Shown in pieces: positions 1,207 through 39,794 of a DNA stretch of 64,000 bases. Under the pieces are notes generated by a model, which saw only the letters and a program-made list of their open reading frames with translations, had not been told where the DNA came from and made no database searches. Origin of the DNA: Bispira polyomma. Taxonomy: Eukaryota. The first letter of the stretch is position 1; every line of letters begins with the position of its first letter. Location of the stretch: positions 35,774,001 through 35,838,000 of the forward strand of contig OZ287754.1 of NCBI GenBank assembly GCA_965649765.1. The letters are read 5' to 3'. The position numbers and the translations under genes are program-made.

Positions 1207-2170
1207 ATGCCACGTAGAAACTATTCAGCATGTGGTGAAAGCCATACAAAACGTGATGAAAGTGAATTTTTTTACCATGAGGATGCTACGGATGATACCT
1301 CTAAAACGGATACTAGTGACATTTTAAGTGCTGCAGTAAATTTATGTATTTTACAAGAACTGAAACAATTAGGTGAACGTATGTCAATAATGGAAGAGCG
1401 AGTTGAACTTTCTGAACAGCAGACTGTAGCTCCCTCCGCTATGGAAATTCCTGTTAAAGTATCCACTTTTGGGATCATTGCAACCACCAGCAGCACTGAT
1501 GATATCTTGGTCCCCTCATTGAGCACCTTGAAGATGTCGCAACAACTACTGCATGCAGTCAACTCCAGATTAAAGGAATTGGTAGACATGAATAAATCAA
1601 GTAACCACAAATCTCAGAGAGGAGGTCCTGATACTGTATGAGTCAATTGACAAGTCACTTGGCCACAAAACCATATTTAATTACTAATAACTATATTATT
1701 CTAAAACTCGTATGTCTAATGATAGTCTTTCCATGGCGCAATGGGTGTCTGGGTTTGGTGCTATAACCATAGGTAGGAGTAATGTTGAAGTTAAAAATTG
1801 TATGCCTGATTATATCCAATATCTAATGGAGGACAGCAATGATTTTTCATAGAAAGCGGCAAAAGGCAGTCATGCAGTCTTGCTATGCAAGATGGAGGAG
1901 GATAAGGTCTCATGGCATGAAATCCCTAAGAATGATCACATACGTAGTACACATGCCTAGAACGTATCAATCAGCAACCACGGGTCGCACTCCTCCCATA
2001 GCCATGGTAGAAAAACAAATGACAAGAGAATCCCTTGGGCTGATCATGAAACCAGGGGTCAGACGTATTTGCATGTATGTACTACATGCTTTATATTTGG
2101 CAAATATTTTCCGCATGCATCCAAAGATTGTAATCGAAACAAAGCTCAAAATATGTTAAATAACGAGTAG
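1207..2170 (+). pseudogene. Y1 gag-like ORF (stops and frameshifts)
   Basis: LQELKQLGERM coiled segment, VPSLSTLK and KSQRGG align by eye with the Y3 and Y5 gag. Confidence 0.65.
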
Positions 2171-2200
2171 GGCAATGCAAAACTTGCTAACAAGGCTTAG

Positions 2201-5200: not shown

Positions 5201-5668
5201 CCAGTGATGTTGTAATCATGGAGAATGAAGGTTTGCTTCTTACCGATCACAAACATGAACCTCTTTTTACCTCTGAGATAAACTTTATGCATTTAGTTTT
5301 ACTGTCTTTAACACAACTCCACATCGACACAGCTTTCATTAGAGCCTATTATGAAGGCTTTATGATGACTTTAACATATTTAGCTTTCTGAGTTGAAAAT
5401 TGGCAGCCATCTTGAATTTAAAGTTCAAAAGTAGGTTAAATCATCAAATAACAACAAATATGCATTTCTTGACCCAAAAAGTCACAGAAATGAAGTACTA
5501 TGCAGCATAGAAGGCCATTTTGAATTAGCTGCTTTTGCGGATTTAGCCGTTTTTTTTGGGAGGGGCATGGGGGCTAAATTTTTTATTTACCCTACAAAGA
5601 AGACAGGTCCACTGAGAAACGAACCTTCGCTCTCCACTGTCACAGAAGTACTGTAAATGACACAACTA
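2201..5668 (-). mobile_element. Academ-superfamily DNA transposon (deleted/degraded) with about 290-bp TIRs
   Basis: TAGTTGGGTCATTTACAGTACTTCCG at 2201 is the reverse complement of ...AAGTACTGTAAATGACACAACTA ending at 5668, and homology extends about 290 bp. Minus-strand remnants include HPEADTIL (XPG-like HEEADT motif) and ARMKKDKQAVQDL. No TSD is recognisable. Confidence 0.75.
3477..3735 (+). mobile_element. tRNA-derived SINE copy 1, nested in Academ
   Basis: A box GGTGGCCTAGTGG and B box GAGTTCGAATCC. 16-bp TSD AACCTGAGCTTGACCA at 3461-3476 and 3736-3751. Confidence 0.92.
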
Positions 5669-5679
5669 TGTAGGCATGC

Positions 5680-6090
5680 TGTAATAACCAGGTGTACACT
5701 AAAGCAATTCCTATTGGTTTTCAAAATTATACAATAATGCACTTAGAGATGCACAATATCCTAGTAGCAATAAGAGTCTGGAAACACCAGTGGAAGGGAA
5801 AAAAGTTATTGGTTCACTGTGCCAACCAAGTTTTTGTCACTTTCCTAAATTCAGGCGAAACCTATGACCCCACCTTAGCTGCAATAGCTAGAAATATACT
5901 AATGAAAATTGCCAATGCAGACATTGAGTTAAAAACAATTCGTATCCTAGGAAAAAACAATGTCAGGACTGACCTTCTATCCTGATGGGCACTCACACCC
6001 AATAATATACTCAAACTTGTTTAGAGAGTACACAATCAAATCTGGCTGCAGGTCACAGATGACCTACTACAACTAGATTGGTCTATCTAA
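5680..6090 (+). pseudogene. Y1 RNase H domain (DIRS type)
   Basis: HLEMHNILVAIRVW...HCANQ...GKNNVRTDLLS. Confidence 0.8.
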
Positions 6091-6513
6091 AAAAATTGAT
6101 TATTTTTAGGTATCACAAGTTAGGTGGCAAAAATGGCACCCAAAGCAGTCTCTTAAGCAAAGTTCTTCAGAGAGTCAGGCAGTTATTGGCCTGAAAGACA
6201 TATTCACTGATTGGGAATAACCTTAAAAACAAACTATAGTAAGTAAAGTAAAATTATATTACCTCAGACACTGACATATTTTTAAGAAAAAACACTAAAT
6301 AATATGTCTTTATCTAAGATGTATGTGTAATGAATTTACTATCATATTTGAGTGATGTCAAGCTAAGCAAAGGCATAAAATTGTTGCTATAATGAATTTT
6401 ATATGTATTGCTTATTTAACTGTTACCAGGTTGACAGGTCGAATTTGAGTTAAACACTAGTAACATTTTGTGTACAGATAATAAAAACGTTTTTTTTTCA
6501 AAAAATAAATAAA

Positions 6514-9279: not shown

Positions 9280-9299
9280 CTAAAAATACAACAAAATGA

Positions 9300-10754
9300 C
9301 TTGGCTATATACCAATATCTATACAGCCACAGGCTGTCTTGCTGGACCTTTGTTGTTACACACTCACTAAAATCTCGCCTAACCTGTCCATCAGAGGACC
9401 TGGAAAGCTTGTCAGCGACTACATTATCAACACCTTTAATATGAAACACCTCCAAATTTATATTATATTGGACTACAAGGTACCAAATATTTCTTAGACA
9501 AAGCTATGAACATATCACAAGTCTTTCCTGTATTTATAACACTGACTGCTGCTGCATTATTGCACCTAATGCCTATGCTAATATCTCACTACTGCAGGCC
9601 CCATACTCTCAATGCAACTAATACATTGTGCATCTCGTAATGTGAAATGGATTGTGTATCTACCAATTCTCACGGGAGGTCTACCGAATAAACCTGGTCT
9701 CGTTTGGAAACTGTTTCCCTCAACAAATTAACCTCACACTCGTCTAATATACTACTGAGCTTTTCCTGAGTGATGCTGAAGGTGGCCTCTGTAACATCCA
9801 CCAGTATACCCAAGATGGTGATGCTTTTAGATGGGGGTGAAACCTTCTTCGGGTTTAAAGGGAGACCCAGGTTTTCAATAACTGTAATCAATGTTTCAAA
9901 ACCTTTGGTTGCCATGATATAGCGTATATAGTCAGAAATGCGCTGGAAAATTGCAGTCCCCTGTACTGCTCCAAAAGCAAGGCTTTGGTCCCAATAGCAC
10001 TCCCCCCCCTCCACTCTATCCCCAAATGTACTGCGTCAGCAGGGTCTATGTGTATGTTTCTGAAAGTATGTAAAATATCTGCTTTCACCAGTCTCGCATT
10101 CTGACCCAATTTCACGAGATCTGGGACTAGAGATTCTAAGGCTGGGAGGACCAGTTTAAAGGGCAAGTCATCATAAGTATCCTTTGTGGTGGCCTTATTG
10201 ACCGAAAAGTCCCTATAAGAAAGGTCAAGAATGACACACCTATCAACCAAGTCTTTCTCCCTAGTCATGAGAGGCGACCATGTGAATGAGGGGTGCGGTA
10301 TAGTTTCAAAAGGGCCCACCATTGCCTTGTGTGCTATTTCAGTCTCCAAATACTTATCAATGGCTTCAGGGTACAAACAAGCAGAATGGTGGTTCTCACC
10401 TACTGAGGTCAAAATCTTACTAAGAGAATCAAGCCCTAAGGGGAACCCAAAGCACAAATAGTCCAATAGTCTTTGGTCATGATAACCTGTCATATTTTCC
10501 TCCCAATAAGAAATTTTAGGACTTATTGTCAAAGGAAATCTACAGGATTTATAGTTGACCACTTTAGAAGATTTAATTTGAGAAACCATATAAGCATACT
10601 GCTCTACATCAGACATATCTAGTTTAGGACCCTGACGTACCTGACTGCTACACGTATTATTAGCAACAAAACCCACTGTTCTATCGTGTGGAACCCCACA
10701 ATGCTTATTTTTAACTTTTTGTACATCAACACTATTAATTACAACAGACAACAA
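9300..10754 (-). pseudogene. Y2 RT-RNase H (frameshifted; the YxDD region appears deleted)
   Basis: FGFPL, SPLMTREK, KADILHTFRNIHIDP, LAFGAVQG, HIKGVDNVVADKLSR. Confidence 0.85.
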
Positions 10755-13096: not shown

Positions 13097-13164
13097 TCAG
13101 TTCTGGCAGCAGGCAAATGGAGGACCAATTAGGTTACCTGAGGTCAAGGGGCCAGATATAAAAG
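13097..13164 (+). promoter_or_regulatory. Putative internal Pol II promoter of Y3 (CCAAT plus TATA)
   Basis: TCAGTTCTGG...CCAATTAGGT...TATAAAAG is conserved upstream of gag in Y5 (30479-30543) and partly in Y7 (40788-40846). Confidence 0.55.
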
Positions 13165-13282
13165 GGATTGGCGCCAACAAGCACCATCATTAATTTCGTA
13201 GCATCACATAAAGTAAGAGTGTTTTGCAAATTGGGGCTTTTACTACCCTATTTTATTATTTTAAACTGTTAACTTGTTAAAT

Positions 13283-14272
13283 ATGCCTCCTAAAAAGGAG
13301 TTCTCTTGTAGTGCTTGGAAAGACATGAATGGCCTGTGGGAAAGCGTTGTCATTTTCAAATGGAGGACAGTGTTGCCGAGGATGTGACCCTGTTGATTCT
13401 TTTACTTCAGGTAATATGTCTGATTCAGTATCCGGTCAAATTCTGCAGCAGTTACAAGCTATGAATAAAAAATTGGAGAGCATGGATCAACGGGTACAGG
13501 TCACGGAGGCGGCACTGTGCTCACCCAGCGCCAATAAGGCATGTATGACTTCTCAAACCAATGTTAGTGTTGCTAGTGTATCTGAGCCAGCAGTAGTTGA
13601 AGCTGTGGTCCCCTCATTAGAGTTCTTACGTACAAACGAAAACCTGTAGTCGCAGGTCGATCAGCGTTTAGTCCAGCTACAACAACTCAATGAACCAGCA
13701 CGAGGTAAACTTAAGTCCCAACGAGGTGGTGTCGAGGCCCCTATAAAAAAGCATGTTGATCGGCCACAGAATTTGGTCCTATCCGGTGTAAAAAAGACTA
13801 GGCCACTTATGACGACTTTTCACTACTTCAGTTTACCTCGGGATTCGTGAGATGTATACAAGAGCCAAAAATGCCGGAAGTACGGGAGGCAATGTCTCGC
13901 AAACCTCATGGATGATGCCCATGATTTTTCTTGGAAAACCGCTAAAGCTTCTCATGCCATTTTACTTACAAACATGGAGGTAGATCGTTTAAAATGGACG
14001 GATGTGGAAAAGGTGAACCGTGTCCGCAGGACCCACGCACAACGCCATGTTGCCCCGAGTGTGAATGGTTTTGGCTCGTCAAAACAAGTAATAACAAAGG
14101 TAAAAGTCAAGTTAAAACCCAAGGGGTCGTCTGTAGGTTCTTCCAAGAAGGAACGTGTAAATTCAATGCCAGCCAATGTACTTCTGGGCAACTTTTTAAA
14201 CATTGTTGTGAGAACTGCGATGGCTCTCATCAAACCAAGTTATGTACAAAGAAAGGCGTTGCAAAAAACTAA
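13283..14272 (+). pseudogene. Y3 gag-like ORF (disrupted)
   Basis: VVPSLEFLR, KSQRGG, DDAHDFSWKTAKASHA, and C-terminal CRFFQEGTC...HCCENCDGSH. Confidence 0.75.
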
Positions 14273-14552
14273 GTGGCCACTGCAGAAATGCAGTGGATGT
14301 AAAAAATTCAAAAACCAAAGTGTATTCAAGAAAAGTGTATAACTCCCAGTTTAAGGATTTTCAGTTATGTAAAAAATCTAGACATTCAATGTGTTTTAGG
14401 GCGGGCCAGTCCTATAGGGATGCTGTGGCAAAAGGAAAATGTTATTCAAAAAATTATCAACCTCCTGTTGACGGTATTGTGGAAACACACACTATGCTTA
14501 GTACCAGTAAAACTAAAACAAAGGCTTTCACAAATCCTTTAAATAAAAGTGA

Positions 14553-16550
14553 GTGGGTTCAAGTGAGGGGAACGGGAATATTGCTGTGTGTGGCCCATGT
14601 GTGACCACTACAGAGAAAAAACGTGTCCAAAAGGTCAATGTTAACAAAGTGGGCTGTAGAACCCCTGAAAATGTAAACAAAGCTATGTTAACTGATTGTG
14701 ATGACAAGTATGCCTTGGATGTACCAAGACTCCCTGATAAAAGGCAGAAACTGAATAAAGCCAAAAATCGTGAGACTTATAAATTGTGGGATGTCCAGAA
14801 CCAGGGGAAGTTTGGGTTTATCCCGCTTAGCCACTGGGGTGTCCCTGTGTTAGACAACTCTGGCAACAAGTTGCCTGCACACTCACTAACCCTGCATGAA
14901 CATCTGCAATTGGATGGGCGACCTAATTATAGGGGCCTCCAATTACCAGTGACCTCCCAGTTAAAAGCCTCTGTATGGGCGGGTTACTTGCAGAATTACT
15001 GGGATTGGGAGCTACCACTTCTTATCAAGTTCGGATTTCCCCTCGATTGTGATCTACAATCTGAATTTAAGTCGAAGATAAATAACCACTCGTCGGCTTG
15101 CCAATACCCGGAACACGTATCTCACTACTTGTTAGAGGAGTGTAATTTGGGGGCCATGTATGGGCCTTATGCTGCTCCACCACTTGAGAGTTTGCATACC
15201 TCCCCCTTCATGACCCGGGATAAATCAAGTTCAAATAAACGTAGGGTTATAATTTATCTGAGTTGGCCCCATGGCCTGTCAGTTAATTCGGCTGTCCATT
15301 CAGACTCATATTTAGTCAAAGAATTTTTACTCACCTATCCCTCAATTAATACCATAACATCCCAAGTTATAGCCATGGGCAGAGGTTCATTACTGTTTAA
15401 AGCAGATATTAGTCGCCCTTTCCATCATGTGACTATGGATCCGAAAGATATAAACCTATTGGGACTGTATTGGGATGGGTACTATGTAGACGGGTCGCTC
15501 CCGTTCGGATACAAGCACGGATCCGCTATTTTTCAACGTATTTCGGATGGCATACGTTATATCATGAAGGGTCAAGGCCACAACATAATAAATTACATCG
15601 ACGACCTATTATGTTGCTCGACGTCCACAAAAATACATAAAGCCTATCACCGACTGCAGGAACTATTGTCTGAACTAGGCCTCACATTGAGTGAGAAAAA
15701 GCTTGTTCCCCCTGCAACCTGTGTAACGCGTCTAGGTATTGATATTGACACCACTAACTTTACTACTTCAATTCCACCTGAGAAGCTAGTCCACATACAA
15801 ACTATGTCTAATACTTGGGCAAACAAAAAATATACAAAGCGAGAATTACAATGTCTACTTGGGTCACTTTTGTATGTGTCCAAGTGTGTAAAGTACTCTA
15901 GGTTTTTCCTCAACAGGATGCTGCAACTTCTCAGAAGCAACCATAAAAGTAACTCGTTCAAAATTTCCCCTGAGTTTGGACAAGATCTAAATTGGTTCAG
16001 GACCTTTTTGAAGAAATACAATGGCGTTTTCTTCATTTACCACCAACCAATTACTGCTATGATTGAGTTGGATGCTTGTTTGACTGGGATAGGGGGAGTT
16101 TATGGAAACCAAGTATATTCTTTGCCAATACCTCTAGAAATGCAACAACAAAACATTGCATTTTTAGAAATGTTGGACATTCTTTTTGCCCTGAGAATGT
16201 GGGGCCATCAGTGGAAAGATCATAGAGTGCTCATAAAGTGTGATAATCAGGCGGTAGTAAGTGTTCTTACAAATGGGCGAACTCGAGATCCTGACTTGGC
16301 ATTGTGTTCTAGAAATATATTTATGATGGCCAGCCACTTTGATGTCGATATACAAGTGATTCATATATTAGGTGAACATAATACAACTGCTAACTTGCTG
16401 TCCAGGTGGACCAACTCAACACAGGACAATAGTCGTTTACATACTCTTGTAGGTCAAGTCCTGCGGTGTCCTGTAGATGAAAAGCATTTGTACCTTGATA
16501 AAAAATATATGACGTTGAATACTCTGCAAATGTTCTTATTTTCTAGATAG
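14553..16550 (+). CDS. Y3 pol: reverse transcriptase plus RNase H (665-aa open frame; true 5' start probably upstream via frameshift)
   Basis: LPFGYKHG, NYIDD, DACLTG, LEM, CDN, NTTANLLSR. Confidence 0.9.
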   Translation: MGSSEGNGNIAVCGPCVTTTEKKRVQKVNVNKVGCRTPENVNKAMLTDCDDKYALDVPRLPDKRQKLNKAKNRETYKLWDVQNQGKFGFIPLSHWGVPVLDNSGNKLPAHSLTLHEHLQLDGRPNYRGLQLPVTSQLKASVWAGYLQNYWDWELPLLIKFGFPLDCDLQSEFKSKINNHSSACQYPEHVSHYLLEECNLGAMYGPYAAPPLESLHTSPFMTRDKSSSNKRRVIIYLSWPHGLSVNSAVHSDSYLVKEFLLTYPSINTITSQVIAMGRGSLLFKADISRPFHHVTMDPKDINLLGLYWDGYYVDGSLPFGYKHGSAIFQRISDGIRYIMKGQGHNIINYIDDLLCCSTSTKIHKAYHRLQELLSELGLTLSEKKLVPPATCVTRLGIDIDTTNFTTSIPPEKLVHIQTMSNTWANKKYTKRELQCLLGSLLYVSKCVKYSRFFLNRMLQLLRSNHKSNSFKISPEFGQDLNWFRTFLKKYNGVFFIYHQPITAMIELDACLTGIGGVYGNQVYSLPIPLEMQQQNIAFLEMLDILFALRMWGHQWKDHRVLIKCDNQAVVSVLTNGRTRDPDLALCSRNIFMMASHFDVDIQVIHILGEHNTTANLLSRWTNSTQDNSRLHTLVGQVLRCPVDEKHLYLDKKYMTLNTLQMFLFSR

Positions 16551-17984: not shown

Positions 17985-17989
17985 TTAAG

Positions 17990-18369
17990 ACTTGTAGTCA
18001 TATATGCACCAAATCGAGATAGACCTCAGTTTTTCGCGATATTTAATAATTATAAAGAGCTTAACAACCAACAGTATGGAATTATCTGCGGAGACTTTAA
18101 TTTCGTTCTCAATTGAAGTATGGACTCAATGAATTATTGTAATATAAATAATCCTAAATCAAGACAATACAAGACTCGACTATTTGTTTGTTTTAAAATC
18201 TCTAATTGATGTTACTCATAGGTGTAAAGTACTATCTGGATATAGAACTGATCATTCTATCATTGGGTTGTCATTGACTCTAGATAAGTTCGAAAGAGGA
18301 AAAGGCATTTGGAAATTAAACACAAATTTATTAAAGGACTATCAATATTTGAATTTATTTAACACTTAA
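17990..18369 (+). pseudogene. L1/Tx1-like LINE AP-endonuclease fragment
   Basis: NIYAPN, ICGDFNFVL, YRTDHS, GKGIWKLN. Confidence 0.8.
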
Positions 18370-18399
18370 ATATTTTTCACCGATTTACAATTTTGATAG

Positions 18400-20529: not shown

Positions 20530-20739
20530 TGTTGTGGTCACGTCAGTGGAAAAAAAATTATATACATTATGGTAAACTTTCCCTCCTAGAAATTGTTTAC
20601 TCAGTAACACCTATCACAGTCTAGGAGACTTAAGTCACACAACCAATCACCTTCCTTCTTAAATGAACCCCTTCCCGCTTTTTCTATGATATTGGCATTA
20701 ATTAGTTGTAAGTCTAGGAAGCAACACTCTGAAAGATTT
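20530..20739 (+). repeat. Y4 repeat A1
   Basis: Matches 26097-26325 except that it lacks 19 bp (TGCTAGTATAGCATGACAA). Confidence 0.95.
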
Positions 20740-20916
20740 AATGTCTAGGCCCATGAGCGGCCATATTGGATTTGGCAATATTTCTAAATAATACAAGCTT
20801 ATTTTACAAGTTCTTATCTCTTTTACATCTTTTTAATAAGTGTTTTTAGTGCCTTTTTACTGTGTCTATATTATTGTGTCACTTGTGGAGCATTTACGCC
20901 TGGAGAAATCAGCACC

Positions 20917-22269
20917 ATGGGAAGAGGTAAAAAGAGACATCCCGCTGTAAACACAGTTATGTGCTCGAGGTGTGACATATCTCACACTCGTCCAGTCGGG
21001 AATAGGTGCACTAGGACCACTGAACCGTTGATTCCAGGGGAAGATTCATCACCCAACCGGGATCTCTGCACAGATAACTTTGACGGTGACACCGCGAGCA
21101 GCGTTTCTGAGAAAGTAAGTTCAGACCACTTTTATCGTGATATGCACACCAGACAGCAAGCTATGATGCAAACCCTCCTTACCACAGTTTCCAAACTACA
21201 GGAGGACGTGTCTGACCTCAAGAAGGGGCGAACCGACACCCCTCTCCCTCAGTTACTACCCGCTACTCCAGCTGTCGTGTCACCTCACCACACATCTGCT
21301 ACACTACTTCACGTACCAGCTCACAACACGCAGATCCTTCCAGACCATACCTACAGGCACCTCACACAACCTGTGTTGCATAGTGTACCTAGCAGTACTC
21401 ACCCACATAGAGACGTCCATCACAACGTTTGCTCACCTCACGTCAACCCGTCCCACGTAACACCCCCTTTGCAGCCTCAACCACAGGCAGCAGCCAACGT
21501 AGACAATTATGGTCAGGGTGTTACTCAGCGCGCGTTACAGGATGCCATCCTACCCACACCGGATATCTTAAGACAGTCGTCGACGATACAAAATGAAGTG
21601 TCACTACGCCTGGCGAGGTACGAGGCTTGGGCGGCTAACGAGAGCGTACAAGGTAAGCTCACTTCAAAGAAAAAATCTGGTCGTTATAATGTGTCTGACA
21701 TTTGTGTTACTGACCCGATGCAACGATGGCCAAATGAGGCCTGCTTTTCAGGCGTTAATAAGAAGCGGGTCTCGTTTGACGACCTCAGCGTATCTCAATT
21801 TGCAGCCGGACAAATCCAAAATATCTTAGACGTACAGAATCCGACTATCTCTCGGGCGATGCTCTCGCAACTTGCCGACACACTAAAGGACGCCTCCAAC
21901 ATATCCTGGCCAATTGCACGGGGGGCGTACGCATGCAATATGCATGATGTGGAGGAGGGCCGTCTGACTTGGTTAAATGAAACTAAATGGACTTTAAATA
22001 GGTTGTCATACTCTCAGGCCCTTGTCTCCAACCACACCACTCCAAGCGCCTCTTCCACCATGTCAACTACCAACAAGCCGGAAATGCCCTGTAGACATTT
22101 CCAAAAAGATCAATGCCAGCATCAAAAAGACCATGAGGGGACGAATACCCTTTTTAAACACATTTGTGCTAACTGCTATCGGTTGAATAAAAAATCCAAC
22201 CCTCACCCGGAGTCCAAATGCTATAAACTCCATGGACGACCTTCTACTACAGCAACTACTACCCAATAG
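20917..22269 (+). CDS. Y4 gag-like protein (450 aa)
   Basis: N-terminal CSRCDISHTRPVGNRC and C-terminal CRHFQKDQC..H / HICANC..HPESKC zinc-finger-like motifs. Confidence 0.88.
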   Translation: MGRGKKRHPAVNTVMCSRCDISHTRPVGNRCTRTTEPLIPGEDSSPNRDLCTDNFDGDTASSVSEKVSSDHFYRDMHTRQQAMMQTLLTTVSKLQEDVSDLKKGRTDTPLPQLLPATPAVVSPHHTSATLLHVPAHNTQILPDHTYRHLTQPVLHSVPSSTHPHRDVHHNVCSPHVNPSHVTPPLQPQPQAAANVDNYGQGVTQRALQDAILPTPDILRQSSTIQNEVSLRLARYEAWAANESVQGKLTSKKKSGRYNVSDICVTDPMQRWPNEACFSGVNKKRVSFDDLSVSQFAAGQIQNILDVQNPTISRAMLSQLADTLKDASNISWPIARGAYACNMHDVEEGRLTWLNETKWTLNRLSYSQALVSNHTTPSASSTMSTTNKPEMPCRHFQKDQCQHQKDHEGTNTLFKHICANCYRLNKKSNPHPESKCYKLHGRPSTTATTTQ

Positions 22270-24900
22270 GACCACGGACTGCCTGCAGTCACCACCACCA
22301 GCAGTTATGACTTGAATCTGGATAACGTACATAGTGCGAGTCAGAGAAACTTAGAGAATTATCTTAAGCAAATTACTAGGGTGGACGATAATAAGAACCA
22401 TATTTTAGAAAACACTTTCAGCATTAGTACTAGGCGTAGTCATTGTGATCAATTACCTGTAGATGACAAGGCTAATCCATCACAGTTTTTATCTAGTTAT
22501 GGCGACTCACGTGTTGGCTGTTTATCAGCTAAAAGTGACAGTTCTAAATTTATTGTTAATCCAGATCTTAGTGACTGTGATGTAACGGCTTATGAAGACA
22601 ATGATACAGAACTCACGTCTCCATTGTGTGATATGTATTTCAGTAACAGTTGTAATGTTCAGAATGTTACCAATTTATGTTACTTAGTGTGTCGTAGTAA
22701 TGCATGTCTTTCAGGTGTCTATATATGTAATTATGTACAAGGACACTGGGTATTCAAAAAGTCCATAATTTCACTGGATTATATATGGCCAATAACCTAC
22801 TCAGGCACTGGTCCCATTCCAGGTCTCAGTAACAACTTCCTACAGCACAAGAAAAAACACAATAAACTACCAACAAAAGACATCACACACACACGCACCA
22901 CACTAGGTAGCACATTATACTATACAGACATCATTGACAGTATATGTAAGCGAGATATTCAGAAACACGTATACACACAGACTGCAGTTACCAACTCTGA
23001 AGCTGCCCCAGGCAGCACACATATCAATAATGTACACACTTCATTTGCACTCATGCAATCTGGATGTAATGAGGACATTATAACAGAGGAAGTTTTAACA
23101 AAACATCCCTTAGACAGCAATAGTGATTATCACATGATAGAGGACTCCCCTATTAAAAACCACAAAACTTATGGCTACATTCCACATAAGCTTAACAGCT
23201 TTGTATTCACAGGTCCTGACAAGCAAGAAGTCGACATCAACTCTTATGAGAAACTGGTACAGGTGGCCAACGTTGTAAAATCCACTAAAGTATCAAACTA
23301 CAGGTTAGCTCGTATACCACTTAAGAGTAACCTTAACGTAAAAAAGTGGCAAGAATACTTAGTTGATTACCCTGACAAGATTATTCTGCAGTACGTCCAA
23401 TTTGGCTTCCCCATATCTTTATATGAGAGACATAGATTACAAGTCACCAATGTCAAAAATCACTATTCAGCCAAAGCCTTTCCTCAAGCAATAGATGAGT
23501 ACTTCATTACTGAGGTTAGCAGAGGCACCATAGTTGGTCCAGTAAATAGCGATATACACCCAGACTTACACTGTTCCCCACTCCTTACAGTTCCTAAGGA
23601 CATTGACCAACGTAGACTGGTATTAAACTTATCTCATCCTACAGGTCAGTCTGTGAATGACTGTACTGTAAAAACCAAATATGACCATATCGACTTTAAC
23701 TTGAGACTACCAACCATTGATCTTATAACTTCACATATTTTGAGTATTGGAACTAAGGCTACCTTAGCAAAGGTGGACGTGGCCCACGTTTTTCGAAATT
23801 TAAGAATAGACCCCTACGATTGCCTCAAACTCGGATATTTTTGGAGAAACAACTATTACATCGATTTAAGTTTAACTTTCGGCTTAACTCACGGCACGCT
23901 GGCGTTTATGATGGCATCAGATTGTATTACTTATATAATGAAACAAAAAGGCTTTACGGTCTTTAACTACATCGATGATTTCATACTCGTAGAGTCGGAA
24001 GATAAGGCAGCCTTAGCTTACAGCACTTTGCAACAAATCCTAGTAGATTTAGGTCTCCCCATTAATGCCAAGAAATTAGTTCCCCCTAGTAAACGTGTCA
24101 CTTGCATGGGCATTATAATTGACATCGATAATAAAACCCTCAGTATTGACGAGGACAAACTGAATTCCATATATGATACTTGCGTCGAGTTTAAATACCT
24201 AAAGAAGGTACGTAAACAAAAATACCAGTCCTTACTGGGAAAGTTGTTATACATACACTGTTGTATTAAACCTTCCCGCATTTTTATGAATAGGATGTTA
24301 ACATTACTCCGAGAATCTACCAGTAGTAATACAGTCACGCTGACTAAGGACTTCCATCAAGACTTAGCATGGTTTGTACGTTTTCTCATTCAATTCAACG
24401 GCACCACCACATTTAATCATGTCAATAAACCTCATGATGTCTGCCTACAAGTCGACGCTTGTTTATCCGGGATAGGCGGTATCTGGAACGGCAACGTCTT
24501 TAAAACTCCCCTCCCCTCTTTCATGACTCACACATTGTCCATAGTACATTTCGAGATGATAAGCATAGTAATTGCGTTAAAACTGTGGGGTCACGAGTGG
24601 ATAAATCAAAAGATCAAAGTTCAATCTGATAACATGGCTGTGGTGGCTGTAGTGCAGTCATCAAAAACTAGAGACAATTATCTAGGCTTATGCCTAAGGA
24701 ACATCTGGCAAATTTGCGCTGAAAAAAATATTGACCTTGTTATTAATCACATCCCTGGTAAGGAAAACATCATCGCTGACGCCCTTTCGCGATGGTATGA
24801 ACTTGAACATTATGGTAGCCATATCCGACAGACTATTATTGACAGTTTTTCCATATATGACATACCCCTTGAATTTTTTACACTGGATACTTATATATAA
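22270..24900 (+). CDS. Y4 pol (RT plus RNase H), in frame with gag after a single TAG
   Basis: KVDVAHVFRNLRIDP, LTFGLTHG, NYIDD, DACLSG, SDNM, ADALSR. No stop between 22270 and 24897. Confidence 0.93.
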   Translation, partial: DHGLPAVTTTSSYDLNLDNVHSASQRNLENYLKQITRVDDNKNHILENTFSISTRRSHCDQLPVDDKANPSQFLSSYGDSRVGCLSAKSDSSKFIVNPDLSDCDVTAYEDNDTELTSPLCDMYFSNSCNVQNVTNLCYLVCRSNACLSGVYICNYVQGHWVFKKSIISLDYIWPITYSGTGPIPGLSNNFLQHKKKHNKLPTKDITHTRTTLGSTLYYTDIIDSICKRDIQKHVYTQTAVTNSEAAPGSTHINNVHTSFALMQSGCNEDIITEEVLTKHPLDSNSDYHMIEDSPIKNHKTYGYIPHKLNSFVFTGPDKQEVDINSYEKLVQVANVVKSTKVSNYRLARIPLKSNLNVKKWQEYLVDYPDKIILQYVQFGFPISLYERHRLQVTNVKNHYSAKAFPQAIDEYFITEVSRGTIVGPVNSDIHPDLHCSPLLTVPKDIDQRRLVLNLSHPTGQSVNDCTVKTKYDHIDFNLRLPTIDLITSHILSIGTKATLAKVDVAHVFRNLRIDPYDCLKLGYFWRNNYYIDLSLTFGLTHGTLAFMMASDCITYIMKQKGFTVFNYIDDFILVESEDKAALAYSTLQQILVDLGLPINAKKLVPPSKRVTCMGIIIDIDNKTLSIDEDKLNSIYDTCVEFKYLKKVRKQKYQSLLGKLLYIHCCIKPSRIFMNRMLTLLRESTSSNTVTLTKDFHQDLAWFVRFLIQFNGTTTFNHVNKPHDVCLQVDACLSGIGGIWNGNVFKTPLPSFMTHTLSIVHFEMISIVIALKLWGHEWINQKIKVQSDNMAVVAVVQSSKTRDNYLGLCLRNIWQICAEKNIDLVINHIPGKENIIADALSRWYELEHYGSHIRQTIIDSFSIYDIPLEFFTLDTYI

Positions 24901-24906
24901 TTTCAG

Positions 24907-25887
24907 GCACCTCAGACTCAGCTGGTCCACTGATACAGGGTGCTTTTAGACGACTCAGACAAAGCCATAGACCCAGAACACAGAGACAATATGACAGCCA
25001 ATTTAGATTTTTTCTCAGCTTTACAGTCTACTACAACTTACAGCACACATTTAGCTTTAACAGCATCATTGCATTTCTAGAATTTCTCACACAAACAAAC
25101 ATTTCCTATAAAGTTATCTGTAACTACCTATCGGCTGTGAGGTATAATGCAAAACTCTTGAATATCCAAAACACAGGGCTATACGACCCTAGGTTAGCAC
25201 TATACACCAGATCACTTGAGTTAACCTCCAAGTATAAACCTCAAATTAAAGGGGTCTTTGATTTGAACCAACTATGTCAGATCTCACAAACCTGCGAATC
25301 TTTACCATGTCCTGAGTTATATAGAACTGCATTCCTTTTTGCCTTTTTTGGTTTTCTTAGGAGTTCCAACCTTACCACAACCTCAGGCAGTCCATTTGAT
25401 CCAACTAGACACCTGACCAGGGCTGACGTATTATTCGCCCCCCCCAGGTATTCACCTTATTTTAAAATGGACTAAGACTAATCAGAGCAGATCCAACCCA
25501 GATATTATACAATTACCCCAGTTGACAAACTCTTGGCTATGCCCTGTCAGAGCAGCCACAGCTTTATTTCAGAAATACCCCATGGATCCACGGGGTCCAT
25601 TACTAGCAAACCCCACAGACAGAGGCACCTGCCTCTCAGATACAAAACTTAGAACCACATTGAAGAACATTTTGATTCACTTAAACATACCAAGGGAAGG
25701 TCACTCATTCCACTGCTTCAGGCGTTCTGGAGCCTCACTTGCCTTCAATTCAAACGTAAAACTTCAGCACATACAAAAACATGGTTGTTGGAAATCAGAT
25801 GCTGTTTGGTCCTACCTTCAAGCCACGTCACACGCGGCTTCCATTATTCCTTCTACTTTTGCTTCTATTGTCTCTTCTACTTTCTAA
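24907..25887 (+). CDS. Y4 tyrosine recombinase (probable spliced second exon; +1 C in the C8 run at 25438-25445)
   Basis: FFGFLRSSNL, KWTK, HCFRRSG, HGCWKSDAVWSY give the R-K-HxxR-H/W-Y catalytic set. Confidence 0.88.
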
Positions 25888-25894
25888 TTTGGCT

Positions 25895-26098
25895 TTGGCA
25901 TTTTTAAAATTTTACCTTAAATTTTACTTTGTACAGATGTAAATAGAGACAGTAGTTAGAAATAATAAATATATCCCAAACAGCATCTGGTTACCATTTC
26001 TAAAAACCTAACCCTTGTAGGTCATAACACTGAACTTCGAACTACAAGGTCAATTATAAGATTACAGTCTACTTAGCTCCACACATTTTTAGCTACTG
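25895..26098 (+). repeat. Y4 repeat B1
   Basis: 204 bp; appears identical to 26770-26973 by eye. Confidence 0.95.
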
Positions 26099-26325
26099 TT
26101 GTGGTCACTGCTAGTATAGCATGACAAGTCAGTGGAAAAAAAATTATATACATTATGGTAAACTTTCCCTCCTAGAAATTGTTTACTCAGTAACACCTAT
26201 CACAGTCTAGGAGACTTAAGTCACACAACCAATCACCTTCCTTCTTAAATGAACCCCTTCCCGCTTTTTCTATGATATTGGCATTAATTAGTTGTAAGTC
26301 TAGGAAGCAACACTCTGAAAGATTT
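26097..26325 (+). repeat. Y4 repeat A2
   Basis: Direct repeat of A1. Confidence 0.95.
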
Positions 26326-26769
26326 CCCAACCCTCCTCCCAAAATTTCTATTCTCATACATCACATTTAATTCTGCCTTGGGTCAACGGAGCTCAGAGAT
26401 CATGTGGAGAGTCCTGTCTCTTAATCCTCCCCTGAGTTCACGCTAGGGTTCCAGGGTTGAATAAGAGCTCTGAGAGGCAGGACTGTCTGCAGGCGAATAG
26501 CATCTCGAGCTTCCATTCCCAGAGCAGAATACATTAGGAATTATAATAGTAATTCTAGCAGTTAGCGTTTTATGTATATTTTATCATGTAAACTTTTAAG
26601 TAAAACTCTTGTGTTAAATTTGTTGCCTCACAATGGCTCTTCAACATCACCAGACATATGACGTTTTATATTGCAACTGGTCATGTTGTTATTTCGGGTC
26701 TTACTGTACCCTAGTATCTACTTAGTATACCTTTGTTATTGTCATGGTACCTTTATTTTTACAGCCATA

Positions 26770-26973
26770 TTGGCATTTTTAAAATTTTACCTTAAATTTT
26801 ACTTTGTACAGATGTAAATAGAGACAGTAGTTAGAAATAATAAATATATCCCAAACAGCATCTGGTTACCATTTCTAAAAACCTAACCCTTGTAGGTCAT
26901 AACACTGAACTTCGAACTACAAGGTCAATTATAAGATTACAGTCTACTTAGCTCCACACATTTTTAGCTACTG
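26770..26973 (+). repeat. Y4 repeat B2
   Basis: Direct repeat of B1. Confidence 0.95.
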
Positions 26974-30439: not shown

Positions 30440-33000
30440 TGGGGGGGGGGGGGGGTTGACGCCCGCACGTCACCCCTCTCAGTTCTGGTACCAGACTTAA
30501 AGGGGCCAATTAGGTCACCAAAGGTCAGGAGGCAGTATAAAAGAGATTGCCGCCAAGTGGCAGCCATCGTTAAACTAGAAATCTTGCTAAGAATAACACC
30601 ATTTTTAAGTTTGGGGTTTCTCTACTACCCTACTTTTAATCATTTTAGAATTTTATACTGACTTGTGATGCACGAAAGTCCGGTTGAAAGAAACTGTCAA
30701 ATACAGAAACTACAATCAGAAGTGTCTGGGGCTAAGGGGAGTGATGCAGGCGTCATCGGTAGCTCGGACTCGGGTGACCAGGTATCTACTGCTGACACTG
30801 ATAGTACTACCGTTTCTTACCAGATACTTGTGCAACTCCAGGCCATTAATCCAAAACTCGACAACACGGATCAACGAGTCCGAGTCACGGAGGCGGCGCT
30901 GTGCTGACCCAGTGCCCCACAGACACGTAAACCTGATTCACTTACTGCTAATTCTGTGAACAATGTTACCACCGTTTCAGATACTGTAGTCCCCACCTTA
31001 GATTTTCTTAGAATGACCTCTGATTTACAACAACAAGTAGATCAACGACTACTTCAATTACGACAGTTAGATCAGTTAATTGGGACAGGTAAACTCAAAT
31101 CTCAGAGCGGAGGTACTTGTGATGTCCATATCAAAAAGAATGTAGACTGGCCTCAAACTTTTGTACTTTCGGGTACTAAAAAGGTCCCACCCTCCTTCGA
31201 CGATTTATCATTGATCCAATTTGTAGCGGGTTTTACCCAGTGTATTTAAGAGAAGAGAGCTTCAGATTTTAGGGAGGCGATGCTAGAACATCTAGGAAAT
31301 GTAACGGACGATGCGCAAAACAAAAGGCATGTGGACTCGGCTGTCACCAACACAAATGGTAAACAACCCCTTGGTTACAAACATGAATCCGCTATATTTC
31401 AGCGAATTTCGGATGGGATCCGGTACATCATGCAGACTGAGGGCCACACAGTGTTAAACTGCATAGATGACATCTTATGTTAGTCAACCCCTAGTAAAAT
31501 ATATGCTAACATTTACAGGTTCTGCTCTCCGAGCTAGGTCTCACCCTTAGCAAGAAAAAACTTGTCCCCCGCATACTCGTGTTACATGCCTCGGCATTGT
31601 TATTGATACTGTGGCATTCACTACTTCTATTCCTGAGGAAAAATTGCAAAGCATTAAACATATATGTAGCCAGTGGGCTAAAAAATTGTATTATAGTAAA
31701 AGGGAACGCCAATGTTGACTTGGCTACCTATTATACGTGTCAAAATGCGTCAAGTATGCGAGGTTTTTTCCAAAATAGGATGCTTCAGCGTCTCAGGGAT
31801 AACCACCAATGTAAATATATACGAACCACAACGGAATTCAAAATGGACCTTAATTGGTTCCAAGTATTTCTAGACAAATTCAATGGGATGAATTTATTTT
31901 ATCATAAACCCATTACGGCTATGGTCGAACTAGATGTATGCCTTACAGGCTTAGATGGGGTTTATGGAAGTCAAGTGTATACTTTAGCCATTCCCCTTAA
32001 ATTACAACAAAAATATTGCTTCCCTCGATATGCTGAACATCTTGGTAGCATTAAAACTATGGGGTGTCCAATAGCACGCCCAGCGTGTATTAGTAAAATG
32101 CGACAACCAGGCAGTTGTCAGGGTCTTAACCACAGGTCGCACCAGGGATCCCATTCTAGTATTCTATGCCCCTAACATTTACATGTTAGCCAGCCACTTT
32201 GATGTGGATTTAAAAGTCATACACATTTTAGGTGAGAATAATAGGTGGCTAATTACCTTTCTGCTATTAAGGCTAATTCTATTCTGTAGAGTGTAGGCAT
32301 GCTGGCGTTCAACGACCCAAAATTTACATACTATCAGAAAACAATTAAAATGTCAACTTCACAAAATGTCAAACTTAAAAAAATTACCACATTATCAAAC
32401 ATTATTGCTGCTGGTTAAAGCACCTAGTTGGGGGTTGTTTTTCAAGCAGTTTACCTGCTCAGCTTTTTCTCTTTCCTGAGACCATCAAATTTAGTGCCAC
32501 ATTTGGCCTCTTAGTACTCTCCCCTTAAGCATTTGGCTAAGGAGATGTCATGTTTAAACAGGATAAAGCTGTAATTTTTGTAAAAAGGTCGAACACCATG
32601 CAAACTGTCAATCAAATCAAACTCATCACTATACCACGCCTATCCGGATCACCTTTGTGCCCGGTTCATGCTTTGAAAGCAATAATGGCAATTACCCCTG
32701 GTGGGGACAATCTAGCTCTTTTTCAATTTGGAAATAACCAAACTTGGCTCCCTTTGACAGATACAAGGGTACATTGTCATTTCTCCAATGTACAAAAAAT
32801 GTAGCAGTTGCATAATTTGGACTTACCTTCCATGCTTTCCGTCTTTCAGGTGCAACTTTGGCTTTTAACCACAACGTTAGCATTCAAAACATTTAACAAC
32901 ATGGCACTTGGACTTCGGACTGCGTGTGGATGTATGTCACCGACACTGTAGATGCTGGCCAGGAAGTAGCCAACACCTTCAGGCAATATCTAGCTCCTTA
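30440..33000 (+). mobile_element. Y5: internally deleted YR retrotransposon, Y3 subfamily
   Basis: Same promoter block as Y3, gag (GKLKSQSGG), RT (LNCIDD), RNase H and YR (FHAFR, HGTWTSD) fragments joined by deletions. Confidence 0.85.
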
Positions 33001-34197: not shown

Positions 34198-34203
34198 CTG
34201 AAA

Positions 34204-36887
34204 TCACACGTCAAAGTTCACATTAAAGAAGTGTATGGGCACGTTATGCCATATGTAGTTTTGCCATAATATTTCAATTTCCCTAACTCTTGGAGGAATC
34301 TCAGAATATAATCTTGATAATGTGTTAGCTGTACAATTCTTTTTCCCCATAATATGCCTAAGCTTAAGTATAATGTCATAAGTTGCTGTTAAGAGCCATA
34401 TATTTCTCAAACAAAGTGCTAAAAATTTGTCCTTAGTTTTGTCACTGCCAACGACCAAAACCACAGCCATGTTGTCGCAGTTTATGATTACCTTCCTATG
34501 CGCCCACTGAACGCCCCATACTCGAATGGCCAGCAGTATGTTAAGCATTTCTATGTGTACAATCGTCAATTTTTGTCCATAAATATTATACAGGGGTGAT
34601 GCATATACCTGGTTCATGTACACGCCCCCTAAGCCTGTTAAGCAGGCATCTATAAAAACTTCATTATTTACTGTATCGACAATGGGTTCAATATAAGTAA
34701 TCCCGTTATAGTTGGGAAGAAAGCAAACGAACCAGCCTAGATCTGCCTTAATTTCTTCAGAAATTTTGAAACGTTTAGCATTGGCGTTATTTCTAAAAGC
34801 CATCAATAACCTATTTATGAAAATACGCGCTGGCTTGACGCATTTATTAATGTATAATAGCCTGCCCAAAACAGACTGAAATTTTGACCTAGAAATCCAC
34901 TGTTTCTTCAACGTTTCTACACATATGTGATATGTTTCCTTAATTTTTTCTTCAGTAATGCTAATAATACCTTTAGCGATGTCTATGTCTATTCCAAGAC
35001 AAGTGACCTGCTTGCCAGGTTTCGAAAGCTTATCTGGATTGATGGGAAGTCCTAGGGATTCAACAAGGTTATATAATTCAGCAAATGCTTTTTCTGAATC
35101 TATTTTTTCTGAGACACATATGTAATCGTCAATGTAACAGAAACATTTATGGCCTAATTTTCTCATTCTAAAGCTATTACGTCAGAACAATGCTGAAACG
35201 CTGCTGAGCCGTGGACCCAGCCGAACGCTACCGCAGGATCTATGTACTTTTCGCCTTCCAAATTTATACCGAATTTTAGTGCGTCGACTGGGTCCACTCT
35301 TAAATTTCTGAACGCCCTGGCTACGTCCAGTTTTAATATTCTCGCATCTTTTGTTCTGCGTATTTCATCTACAATATCGTCTATATTTGGAAATTTTAAA
35401 TTAAATTCTATGCCATCAAATTCTTTTCTATCGATGTTATCGTTTACTGACTCACCATGTGGAAATGACAAGTCCAGAATGACCCTTCACTTATCCAAAT
35501 CTTTTGGACGCGTTAACAGAGGGGAACAGTGGTAATGCTCACTTTTTATAGTGCTTACTGGGCCTAACATGGCTCCATTGGCTTTCTCTTTATTGATGTA
35601 ATCCCTTACTGCTGTTTTATGTTGAAGGGCAGAATAGTGATTCTTAGTTTCCTTAACCTTAAGTGTATTTGGTTGAGTAAGAGATAACAGGAAACCGAAT
35701 TTCAGATATTGTAACAAAAGTTTGTCGGGGTAATCTTCCAGTGCCTTTTCCCAGCCTTCAATTTTAAGACCAGATTTAAGTGCGATGCGTGCTCGCCTAT
35801 AGTTGGGGCAGCCAGAGTCTCTGATCACTTCAGCTATCTCTACTATTTGATCAACCGTTGTAATGTGCACTGGTAATCTGTCTGGACCAATAAATTCAAA
35901 TTTTGTATCAGAAATTGCTAAAAAACCCTTAGTTTTCGGAGGAAATTCAACATTCTTACTGCTCTGAACCCTGGGGGAAATTTCTTGCCCCATTGCCTGA
36001 GAAATTTGGTCGGATAAGTCGGACGACGCCATGAGATTCTTTACCTTGTTTCCAAGATTACATGTGTTAGTTAAGTTAGTACTGTGTTGTTCTGGTGAAA
36101 CATTTCCACCTAAACTCTTCTCAACTCGTTCACTACTCTTAATTAGCTCATCAATTACGTTTTCCATATATTGTACATATCCGTGTCCAAATTTTTCCCT
36201 AAATTTTTGATCCTGACTGAAATTTCTATAAACATTCTGAGCTTGTGATTTCTCATTTGAATCATAATATGTAATATTTTCATGGACAATGCTCTCCTGT
36301 ATAGTGGTTACTGCTATCTGCATTTTCCCCTGGTCAATGACCCAAATTGGGCCCTCAGGCAGTGAGTGGCATTTACTATAACTACAACATTTTTTCACAT
36401 AATCATATTTTTGAATGTAAAACCCATCCAATTCAGACCTGCCCGTGTTAATATATAATACAGGTAAACTATCCCCAAATTTCTCATGACAGTATGACCA
36501 GTTCATGACACATACTTCAGCAGTAACCAGTTCTACCTTAGGAGCATTGTTGGCAGCTTCATATATCTGAAAGGGTACATTATGGTTTTCACAAGTACAA
36601 TTATCATTACTGATAGGTATGTCCACATTCAAAGCATTATCAACAGCCTTACATTGCTCAATAAAGTCAATATAATTTCCAACATCTATTAGAGGTGTCT
36701 CTACATAGGCAAGTGTTTCTGAGAACCTTTCTTGGTTCAATGTTTTATCATACATACTGGAAACTGTTAAACTATTATAGCTTAAGTAATCACTATTGAT
36801 ATCTCTAAAGGTTCCTAAATTCTTTCTAATATTACTGCCCTTAACATGCTCTTCCATTGTCCCGTTTCTTGGTCGTCGGCAAATGTC
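34204..36887 (-). pseudogene. Y6 pol RT-RNase H (two frameshifts, near 35480 and 35165)
   Basis: LDVARAFRNLRVDP, AFGWVHG, CYIDD, DACLTG, CDNM. Confidence 0.9.
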
Positions 36888-38053
36888 CTAATTATTAACT
36901 GCTCCTTCTGCCTGTTTTGTCGAATTCTCCCGATAGCATTTGAATTCCGGATGTGTTGCTTCTTTCTTGAGAACTGTGGCACAATGCCAGCATTGATGGC
37001 GATATTGGCCGAGGTCCGCACGATGAGAACATTTGCCTGGATTGAATAGCTTGCAAATTGTTCGCCCTTGACTTGAATTATGGGAGTTGGAGGTGGAATT
37101 GGCTGAGAAAGCCGTGTTTCCATTCGCCATCGCCGTCTGGGAGGCACTAATACGATTTAGTGCCCACTGAGTTGTGTCACTCCATCCCAAGCGCACAGCT
37201 TTGACCTCATGCATACTCATGGACCACGCAGTGCGCACAACTTCCCATGGCAGAGAGGCGACATCCTGAAGAGAGAATATGACTTGTTCTACCATCGCCT
37301 TCATAACTACCGGATCTGAGACCTGAAGGGCATTTGCTAATTGTCCTGCAGCCCACTGGGGGAGCGACAAGTCGTCATACATAGGCCGTTTGCGAGTCGC
37401 CCCGCCGACCCAGCCTTCGTTGGCCCATCTAAACTTAGGTTCTGCTGACGCGATGTCCATGTTATTAAACCGCCCTGATTTCTGTCGCTTACCTTGGGCT
37501 AGGGCACACTAGGCTTGCGCCTCATACTGTGCGAGAGCAGATTGGGAAGCTGAAGATTCACCCCAGTCACAGAGATTGTGTTAAGTGTCCCGCCCTGGTT
37601 ACCGGTGAATGGCCCTGTAGGTTGGATCTGACTCGACTGCACGTGGGTTGCCACCTTTGAAGCTTCACGGGCTTCCATCTGATTAAACCTCCGAGTAATC
37701 TGAGAGTTTGACTCCTCCAGCCGTCAAAGTACCGACATCATGAGGGTCATCTCACTACTTGCCGTCGGTGCGGTGGAAACAGGGAAATCCCGTTGGCTGA
37801 ATTGCTCTGGACAGTCCGAGAGTAAATGAGCCGTGGCTGTAGCTTGGGCCTGTGTACCCGTTGCGAGTATTGGTGACGCAAATTGTGAATTGTCGCGTTG
37901 ATAACATGGCAGATTAAGACTGTTAAGTATACTGTCTGATACCTGTTCCACCTGGACTGTTTTCCTTGTTGGTCGTCCTTTCCCCGTACTCTTGCTACTC
38001 TGTCTCATGGTTTTCTTTGCCACGTCCGAAGGTGTCTTCTTGGTACGTCCCAT
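36888..38053 (-). pseudogene. Y6 gag-like (disrupted)
   Basis: QGKRQKSGRFN, YDDLSLPQWAAGQL, CKLFNPGKC..HQCWHC..HPEFKC. Confidence 0.8.
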
Positions 38054-39724: not shown

Positions 39725-39794
39725 CCATTTGTCTTCGGTAGCAGATATTAATTTTTTCTGTGCAACTGGAAACAAAAAAAACAAAAAGTATTTC

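What the first reader, a model, noticed from the sequence alone, without database searches (positions are those of the whole stretch)
21653..24906. Conserved phase-1 intron that would splice out pol and fuse the Gag N-terminus to the tyrosine recombinase
Seen, donors: a G|GTAA(G/A) donor sits at the same gag position, just before the KSQRGG/KSGR motif, in Y3 (13705), Y4 (21653), Y5 (31089), Y6 (37492, minus) and Y8 (59165), with a degenerate A|GTAAC in Y1 (1601). It always splits a codon after base 1, and the Gly codon is always GGT. Seen, acceptors: a pyrimidine-rich ...YAG lies at or just after the end of RT/RNase H in Y1 (6109), Y2 (9280, minus), Y3 (16546), Y4 (24906), Y6 (34198, minus) and Y8 (62457). 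Each enters the YR frame in phase 1; for example Y4 reads CAA G|GC ACC TCA GAC...LIQGAFRRL. The Y4 YR frame has no AUG in its first 76 codons. Inference: YR is made as a spliced Gag(1-245)-YR fusion of about 570 aa that keeps the N-terminal Cys/His finger, analogous to retroviral env splicing. I do not know of this being described for these elements but cannot check. Caveats: the degraded Y7 acceptor is 1 nt out of phase, and Y2, Y6 and Y8 have nearby in-frame AUGs.
Basis: partly seen in the sequence, partly recalled or inferred. Interest (0 to 1): 0.92.

Follow-up and report, generated by a model that had tools for sequence, protein, structure and literature searches.

The report
Splice joins Gag to transposon recombinase
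A family of jumping genes keeps matching splice signals around its reverse-transcriptase gene in almost every related group examined, which suggests that it makes its integrating enzyme by splicing it onto the front half of its structural Gag protein, a route not yet seen in RNA.

Summary
Copy Y4 (20539-26973) is a tyrosine-recombinase (YR) retrotransposon with split direct repeats and no methyltransferase, so it is Ngaro-type by structure. A phase-blind search gave a phase-1 donor in 22 of 22 sequence groups (21 at the homologous site) and a phase-1 acceptor in 25 of 28 groups, from this genome and from metagenome contigs of other organisms. The donor Gly is GGT in 20 of 20 groups, against 41 of 152 in other Gly-Lys/Asn pairs. 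The pol-to-YR spacer (6-783 nt) and frame (-1, 0, +1) vary freely, which argues against frameshifting. Y4-group YR frames have no AUG before the catalytic Arg. Best reading (0.85): a roughly 3.2-kb intron is spliced out to give Gag(N)-YR, 573 aa in an intact sibling. Y4's own YR is frameshifted. Splicing is inferred, not shown: no RNA run was available, and I found no spliced genomic copy or fused protein. Ten paper searches found no description. The scan noted a similar Gag-YR splice before, in a diatom-like genome (e1-7561852, unchecked).

The parts
20539..20739 (+). Split direct repeat A1 (about 26 nt longer at the 5' end in sibling copies)
   Evidence: 99.5% to 26125-26325; sibling ends
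20917..22269 (+). gag ORF, 450 aa: Cys/His finger, coiled-coil helix, linker and helix, then a helical domain and C-terminal Cys/His knuckles
   Evidence: domain layout from the model of relative L065
20917..21652 (+). Predicted coding exon 1: Gag 1-245 plus 1 nt
21653..21658 (+). Phase-1 splice donor, AAG|GTAAGC; best-scoring of 80 GT sites in the leader and gag
21653..24906 (+). Predicted 3254-nt intron holding the Gag C-terminal half and all of pol (inferred)
22267..22269 (+). gag TAG stop, in frame with pol (stop-codon readthrough inferred)
22270..24900 (+). pol frame, 876 aa: RT and RNase H, no methyltransferase
   Evidence: Pfam RVT_1 E 6e-6 and RVT_3 E 1e-4; stop 41 codons after the ADxLSR motif
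24887..24906 (+). Splice acceptor ending TTTCAG, 6 nt after the pol stop; phase 1 into YR
24907..25887 (+). Predicted exon 2: whole tyrosine recombinase with no usable AUG; frameshifted in this copy near 25440-25447
   Evidence: family matches Cre and Phage_integrase
25895..26098 (+). Split direct repeat B1
   Evidence: 100% to 26770-26973
26099..26325 (+). Split direct repeat A2, directly after B1
26770..26973 (+). Split direct repeat B2, the element's 3' end
1601..6109 (+). Y1, degraded copy: weak donor A|GTAAC at 1601, acceptor at 6109
   Evidence: no YR anchor found, so the acceptor was read by eye
9280..9300 (-). Y2 acceptor (no donor located)
13705..16546 (+). Y3 donor to acceptor, both phase 1
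31089..31094 (+). Y5 donor, phase 1 (the acceptor region is deleted in this copy)
34198..37492 (-). Y6 donor (37492) to acceptor (34198)
   Evidence: sibling L057
44431..44450 (+). Y7 acceptor, degraded, 1 nt out of phase
59165..62457 (+). Y8 donor to acceptor, both phase 1

Best explanation
One transcript gives three proteins. Unspliced RNA is the genome and makes Gag, plus Gag-Pol by recoding at the end of gag (an in-frame stop in the Y4 group, an A_AAA_AAC -1 site in other groups). A fraction is spliced from a phase-1 donor in mid-gag to a phase-1 acceptor just after the RNase H stop. This removes the Gag helical domain, the C-terminal knuckles and all of pol, and yields Gag(N)-YR (about 440-570 aa by family). 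Gag supplies the start codon. Its retained coiled coil probably lets the recombinase co-assemble with Gag and travel with the cDNA. Shown: the sites, their phase, codon constraint, and the missing AUG. Inferred: splicing, that this donor pairs with this acceptor, and recoding. Speculative: co-assembly (about 0.45).
For: Donor: best site phase 1 in 27 of 27 anchored elements and 22 of 22 groups, with 21 of 22 groups scoring >=0 against 15.7% of null windows. Its codon is GGT in 20 of 20 Gly cases, against 41 of 152 other Gly-Lys/Asn pairs. Conserved control glycines use all four codons (RPVG 3/2/2/2; KSGR or SQRGG 5/3/2/1). The base at -2 is A in 18 of 22, against 30 of 152. The donor ranks first in 9 of 19 gags and in the top 5 in 18 of 19, among 60-93 GT sites each. 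Acceptor: phase 1 in 39 of 43 elements and 25 of 28 groups, against 40% of null windows, and mostly 17-21 codons before a fixed YR motif. In 35 elements with an intact pol end the spacer is 6-783 nt, and YR is -1, 0 or +1 to pol in 19, 7 and 9. Of 16 fully read intact YR frames, 9 have no upstream Met and no Met before codon 25, while the match to Cre starts about 15 codons after the acceptor. The donor falls in a loop between predicted domains. Exon 1 of relative L065 as three copies scored 0.40, best control 0.01, through helix 49-78. That mark was reached by 21 of 30 proteins solved as pairs and 0 of 23 single chains; on eukaryotes by 17 of 29 (animals 7 of 16, but only 1 of 7 with no solved relative) and 0 of 30 single chains. 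Runs agree in at least 34% of contacts, pLDDT is at least 45, three copies is unlike the calibration, and a coiled-coil pass may be from memory.
Against: No junction was seen in RNA. No precisely spliced genomic copy was seen among the 18 exon-1 and 17 exon-2 close Y4-family matches. None of 150 exon-1 homologues continued into YR, though these are mostly gene calls on DNA contigs. Four elements scored out of phase (Y7, L058, L060, L073). L058 and L073 differ by an indel from an in-phase sibling and L060 from Y2; Y7 has no close sibling and carries a stop. Donor L061 was not found (score -1.5, frameshifted copy). Some donors are weak (L038 and L046 score 0.1; L046 ranks 13 of 73). Six of 16 intact YR frames have an upstream in-frame Met and one has a Met at codon 13, so some families could start YR alone. 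A loose branch-point motif was found in only 25 of 45, which says little. The groups are related, so the binomial P values (1e-7 to 1e-16) overstate independence. The splice weights were approximate frequencies that I recalled.
Confidence: 0.85

Rival explanations
1. Both sites are used, but not mainly with each other. The acceptor takes a donor in the leader or the first gag codons (an env-like short leader), and the mid-gag donor serves something else.
For: Y4 and L026 have a phase-1 G|GTAAAA at gag codon 4. In 10 of 19 gags another GT outscores the conserved donor.
Against: The codon-4 site is absent from L031 and L032. The other recurring donor bins in gag are phase 0 or 2 and reach at most 7 of 19 elements. 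The mid-gag site matches the acceptor phase in 21 of 22 groups.
Confidence: 0.07
2. YR is translated from its own start (internal AUG, non-AUG, reinitiation after the pol stop, or a separate short transcript), and the splice-like motifs are by-products.
For: Y2, Y6, Y8, L045, L061 and L066 have an AUG within 14 codons of the acceptor, and 6 of 16 intact frames have an upstream Met. T-rich spacers make AG sites score well.
Against: L031 has no Met in 327 codons, and L002 and L026 have none before 226. This reading explains neither the fixed phase of the AG nor GGT in 20 of 20 donors.
Confidence: 0.05
3. YR is made as Gag-Pol-YR by a -1 ribosomal frameshift at the end of RNase H.
For: In the Y4 group YR is -1 to pol and overlaps it by 2-9 codons; -1 is the commonest relation (19 of 35). 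PMC3783388 says the YR ORF can be in frame or frameshifted (passages).
Against: 16 of 35 elements are in frame 0 or +1, and spacers reach 783 nt with stops in between. I saw no shared slippery heptamer in the Y4-group overlaps (read by eye). It would need two recoding steps in a row.
Confidence: 0.03

Closest known systems
Ngaro retrotransposons (DIRS order; A1-ORFs-B1A2B2, no methyltransferase; PMC8547959, PMC13465315, PMC3783388, passages read)
   Same: Gag-like ORF, RT/RNase H, YR, split direct repeats, no MT domain.
   Different: The papers describe three ORFs that overlap or are frameshifted. PMC3783388 and PMC9210276 contain no 'splic' or 'intron' hits. Here YR lacks its own start and is bracketed by conserved splice sites, and 445 nt separate the A2 homology from B2.
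Pat1-like elements, echinoderm form (PMC4157794, passages read)
   Same: Split direct repeats and a Cys/His finger in Gag.
   Different: PAT elements encode an MT domain; here pol stops 40-41 codons after the RNase H motif.
MLV SD' RNA encoding P50/P60 (PMC10496198, passages read)
   Same: An alternative donor inside gag is spliced to an acceptor in pol and fuses the Gag N-terminus in frame to integrase sequence; P50 is packaged in virions.
   Different: P50 carries only the last 116 aa of a DDE integrase and is an accessory protein. Here the whole recombinase follows the acceptor, and splicing looks like its main route.
Spliced subgenomic RNAs of retroelements: retroviral env, foamy-virus pol, Drosophila copia gag (recalled, not checked here)
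   Same: A retained intron in the genomic RNA; the spliced form balances protein amounts.
   Different: As I recall, none of them makes the integrating enzyme as a Gag-N fusion.

Membership tests
Ngaro | Split direct repeats A1-[ORFs]-B1A2B2 | tested here: met
   A1 20539-20739, B1 25895-26098, A2 to 26325, B2 26770-26973; 445 nt lie between the A2 homology and B2
Ngaro | RT and RNase H | tested here: met
   Pfam RVT_1 (26.5 bits, under its cut-off of 29.6) and RVT_3
Ngaro | Tyrosine recombinase on the pol strand, with R, H-x-x-R and Y | tested here: met
   FLR, HCFRR and WSY in L002; Phage_integrase in 15 of 26 family members; Cre E 0.003
Ngaro | No methyltransferase domain | tested here: met
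   No MT hit in Y4 pol; pol stops 40-41 codons after ADxLSR in 35 of the 41 elements where that motif was found
Ngaro | Placement in an Ngaro clade on RT or YR trees | not testable with these tools
   No named reference elements were obtained. PMC4157794 warns that MT loss is homoplasious.
PAT / Pat1-like | MT domain after RNase H | tested here: not met
PAT / Pat1-like | Zinc finger in Gag | tested here: inconclusive
   Cys/His motifs at both Gag ends; only a weak zf_CCCH_4 hit, E 0.044; the published pattern was not applied
DIRS1-like | Inverted terminal repeats with an internal complementary region | tested here: not met
   Y4's repeats are direct
Spliceosomal GT-AG intron | Conserved donor and acceptor in compatible phase | tested here: met
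Spliceosomal GT-AG intron | Branch point | tested here: inconclusive
   Loose motif in 25 of 45, no control run
Spliceosomal GT-AG intron | Removal seen in RNA | not testable with these tools
   No RNA holder listed

The most novel reading that the evidence does not exclude
Splicing the recombinase onto the Gag N-terminus is the ancestral and general way Ngaro-type retrotransposons make their integrase across eukaryotes. The YR 'ORF3' is then an exon, not a gene, and the Gag coiled coil acts as a packaging tag that brings the recombinase into the particle without a protease or a Pol-integrase polyprotein.
Probability: 0.4. Interest if true: 0.85.

Novelty: new variant of a known kind. Interest (0 to 1): 0.68.

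Why it matters
The papers I read draw the recombinase of these elements as a separate third ORF and do not say how it is translated or how it reaches the cDNA. These elements have no protease or DDE integrase (PMC3783388). A conserved Gag-YR splice would answer both questions with one RT-PCR-testable junction. It would correct the annotation of a widespread element group, whose true recombinase would carry 130-250 extra residues. It would also be a case of a retroelement making its whole integrating enzyme by alternative splicing.

Tried and rejected
RNA: no RNA holder listed. The three listed runs, of unrecorded kind, cover all 30 bins of 13000-26120, including the sequence between elements, as DNA would. 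No 21652-24907 joint was among the 15 joints shown; 86 were not shown. This says nothing for or against splicing. Spliced genomic copies: none apparent among close Y4-family matches to exon 1 (18) or exon 2 (17), nor in the hit tables for the Y3, Y6 and Y8 families (read by eye, only 36-40 best candidates scored, biased against short copies). An exon-1 protein search for spliced copies was not run, so this stays open. Fused proteins: YR search at 185-590 aa gave 40 hits, none with a Gag match; the longer-protein search gave 2 fish gene models with Gag, RT and YR in one chain, not the splice; 0 of 150 exon-1 homologues had a YR domain. No YR relatives in viral or prokaryote contigs. Fold searches of the Gag model gave nothing clear (no E <= 0.001; best Z 4.9). 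The ESM Atlas gave only unnamed clusters. My first gag anchor hit the wrong helix and was replaced. Left out of the counts for lack of an anchor: 22 of 49 elements for donors (most lack gag in the fetched DNA; also Y2, Y6, Y7, L048-L050) and 4 or more for acceptors (Y1, Y2, Y5, L044); loci L052, L053, L055 and L056 were not analysed. Poulter and Butler 2015 is not held. No supplements were read.
Full report
Setting. The window lies in a 1.04-Gb assembly of 75 contigs. The window holds eight diverged, mostly degraded elements with RT and tyrosine recombinase (YR), 35-45% identical to Y4 in pol. Y4 runs 20539-26973, with direct repeats A1, B1, A2 and B2. It has a 450-aa gag, an 876-aa pol frame behind an in-frame TAG with RT and RNase H hits, and a YR frame that is frameshifted in this copy and open (337 codons stop to stop) in siblings such as L002-L004 and L012. 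The family matches Phage_integrase in 15 of 26 members and Cre weakly.

Observation. All twelve sites read as stated. They are kept in every one of the 30 loci that covers them.

Test set. I gathered 49 elements: 8 in the window, 21 elsewhere in the genome and 20 of the 24 metagenome loci. Protein anchors were placed by HMM, and the best donor or acceptor in a fixed window was taken without regard to phase, using generic recalled weights. Elements were grouped at 70% DNA identity.

Donor. The best site is phase 1 in 27 of 27 anchored elements and 22 of 22 groups. One of these (L061, frameshifted, score -1.5) is not the homologous site. In null windows the best site is phase 1 in 368 of 979, and phase 1 with score >=0 in 15.7%. 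The codon is GGT in 20 groups and AGT in 2. Other Gly-Lys/Asn pairs use GGT in 41 of 152, and conserved control glycines use all four codons. The -2 base, a third codon position, is A in 18 of 22 against 30 of 152. The following residue varies between Lys, Asn and Thr, so this is not a fixed peptide. Among 60-93 GT sites per gag the donor ranks first in 9 of 19 (first in Y4) and in the top 5 in 18 of 19. In 93 of the 150 database homologues that could be scored, the first Gly after the helix is followed by Lys (34), Asn (23), Thr (9) or Arg (7). This fits G|GTA but is protein-level only.

Acceptor. The best site is phase 1 in 39 of 43 elements and 25 of 28 groups, against 479 of 1194 null windows. 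The exceptions are degraded copies. In L062 and L032 the scorer picked a neighbouring in-phase AG, and the homologous AG is also in phase. The Y4 acceptor ranks 9 of 196 AG sites in its intron; ranks run from 1 to 38 over 18 elements.

Rivals. In 35 elements with an intact pol end, the acceptor lies 6-783 nt behind the pol stop, and YR is -1, 0 or +1 to pol in 19, 7 and 9. What is conserved is the phase of the AG to YR, not the frame of pol to YR, so frameshifting cannot be the general route. An own start fails in the Y4 group (first Met at 226, at 229, or none in 327 codons). It also fails in 9 of 16 fully read intact frames, but is possible in the other 7. A leader or codon-4 donor is not conserved.

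Protein logic. The AlphaFold model of the Gag of relative L065 (mean pLDDT 81, pTM 0.49) shows a finger, helix 47-78, a linker, helices 118-145, a helical domain 168-268 and C-terminal knuckles. The donor at residue 148 lies in the loop between them. Three copies of exon 1 scored 0.40 against a best control of 0.01, through helix 49-78 (counts and caveats under Best explanation; own-fold pLDDT under 50). This supports but does not show self-association, so co-assembly of Gag(N)-YR with Gag stays a hypothesis. The YR profile meets Cre residue 31 about 15 codons after the acceptor, so exon 2 holds essentially the whole recombinase. Joined frames are 573, 569 and 556 aa in L002, L026 and L031, 439-511 aa in four metagenome elements (L035, L037, L038, L042; L042's YR frame ends early), and 434 aa in Y4.

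What is missing. No RNA holder was listed, and the laid runs look like DNA. No spliced genomic copy or fused protein was found. These searches were weak for the purpose.

Known systems. By repeats and lack of methyltransferase the element is Ngaro-type; tree placement was not tested. Ten paper searches showed no report of a Gag-YR splice in their listings. I read term-matched passages only, of PMC7192593, PMC9341512, PMC9210276, PMC4157794, PMC6681497, PMC3783388, PMC8547959, PMC3266345, PMC13465315, PMC10496198 and PMC5633606, and no supplements. PMC4157794 has two 'splic' hits that were not among the passages shown. The Goodwin and Poulter papers and Repbase entries were not seen. I recall that they mention introns in some fungal elements, and they could hold a prior note. 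The nearest working analogue is MLV P50. The scan's own notes report a like Gag-YR intron in a diatom-like genome (e1-7561852) and a shared-donor plan elsewhere (e1-7350058). Both are unchecked, were read after my reading was formed, and are not counted as support.

Verdict. The feature is real and under selection at the nucleotide level. A spliced Gag(N)-YR mRNA is the best reading (0.85). It is a new variant of a known kind; interest 0.68, held down by the lack of RNA evidence and the gap in the older literature.

Noticed in passing
window 22267-22269; L031, L032, L035, L037, L038, L042, L044, L046 against L058, L063, L065, L070: Two ways from gag into pol. Of 18 elements, 9 have a long in-frame ORF right behind the gag stop (TAG in the Y4 group, TGA in six metagenome elements), which suggests readthrough; 4 have an A_AAA_AAC heptamer at the gag end, which suggests a -1 shift. 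L068 and some copies (open frames of 1343 aa) have no stop at all.
   Followed up: partly
L048:2718, L049:658, L050:1461: A distant clade without the N-terminal finger has AAAG|GTACG in phase 1 at an SSKGT motif in 3 of 3 gags (found after the fact) and phase-1 acceptors, so the plan may extend beyond the near clade.
   Followed up: partly
P0008-P0011, P0014, P0016, P0017, P0025, P0027: Database YR gene calls start with ISG, VSG, VTG, LTG or FLG at the acceptor position, which is what a T-rich YAG|G read in phase 1 spells. Their DNA was not seen.
   Followed up: no
window 1-64000: Eight diverged YR elements in both orientations within 64 kb, an unusually dense cluster; it could be a transposon trap or heterochromatin (speculation).
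   Followed up: no
window 3475-3725, 6514-6775, 39473-39725, 44721-44974, 63251-63505: A repeat of about 250 bp in five copies, 82-94% alike, several inserted inside the YR elements.
   Followed up: no
window 51305-51988: A separate RT fragment (Pfam RVT_1 E 4e-10) that Y4 pol does not match; probably another retroelement class.
   Followed up: no
L044, L046, L048: YR lies upstream of the next gag within 0.3-1.1 kb, which suggests tandem copies or a collapsed circular assembly.
   Followed up: no
window 40329-40447 and 49357-49518: Imperfect palindromes of about 120 and 160 bp (74% and 79%).
   Followed up: no
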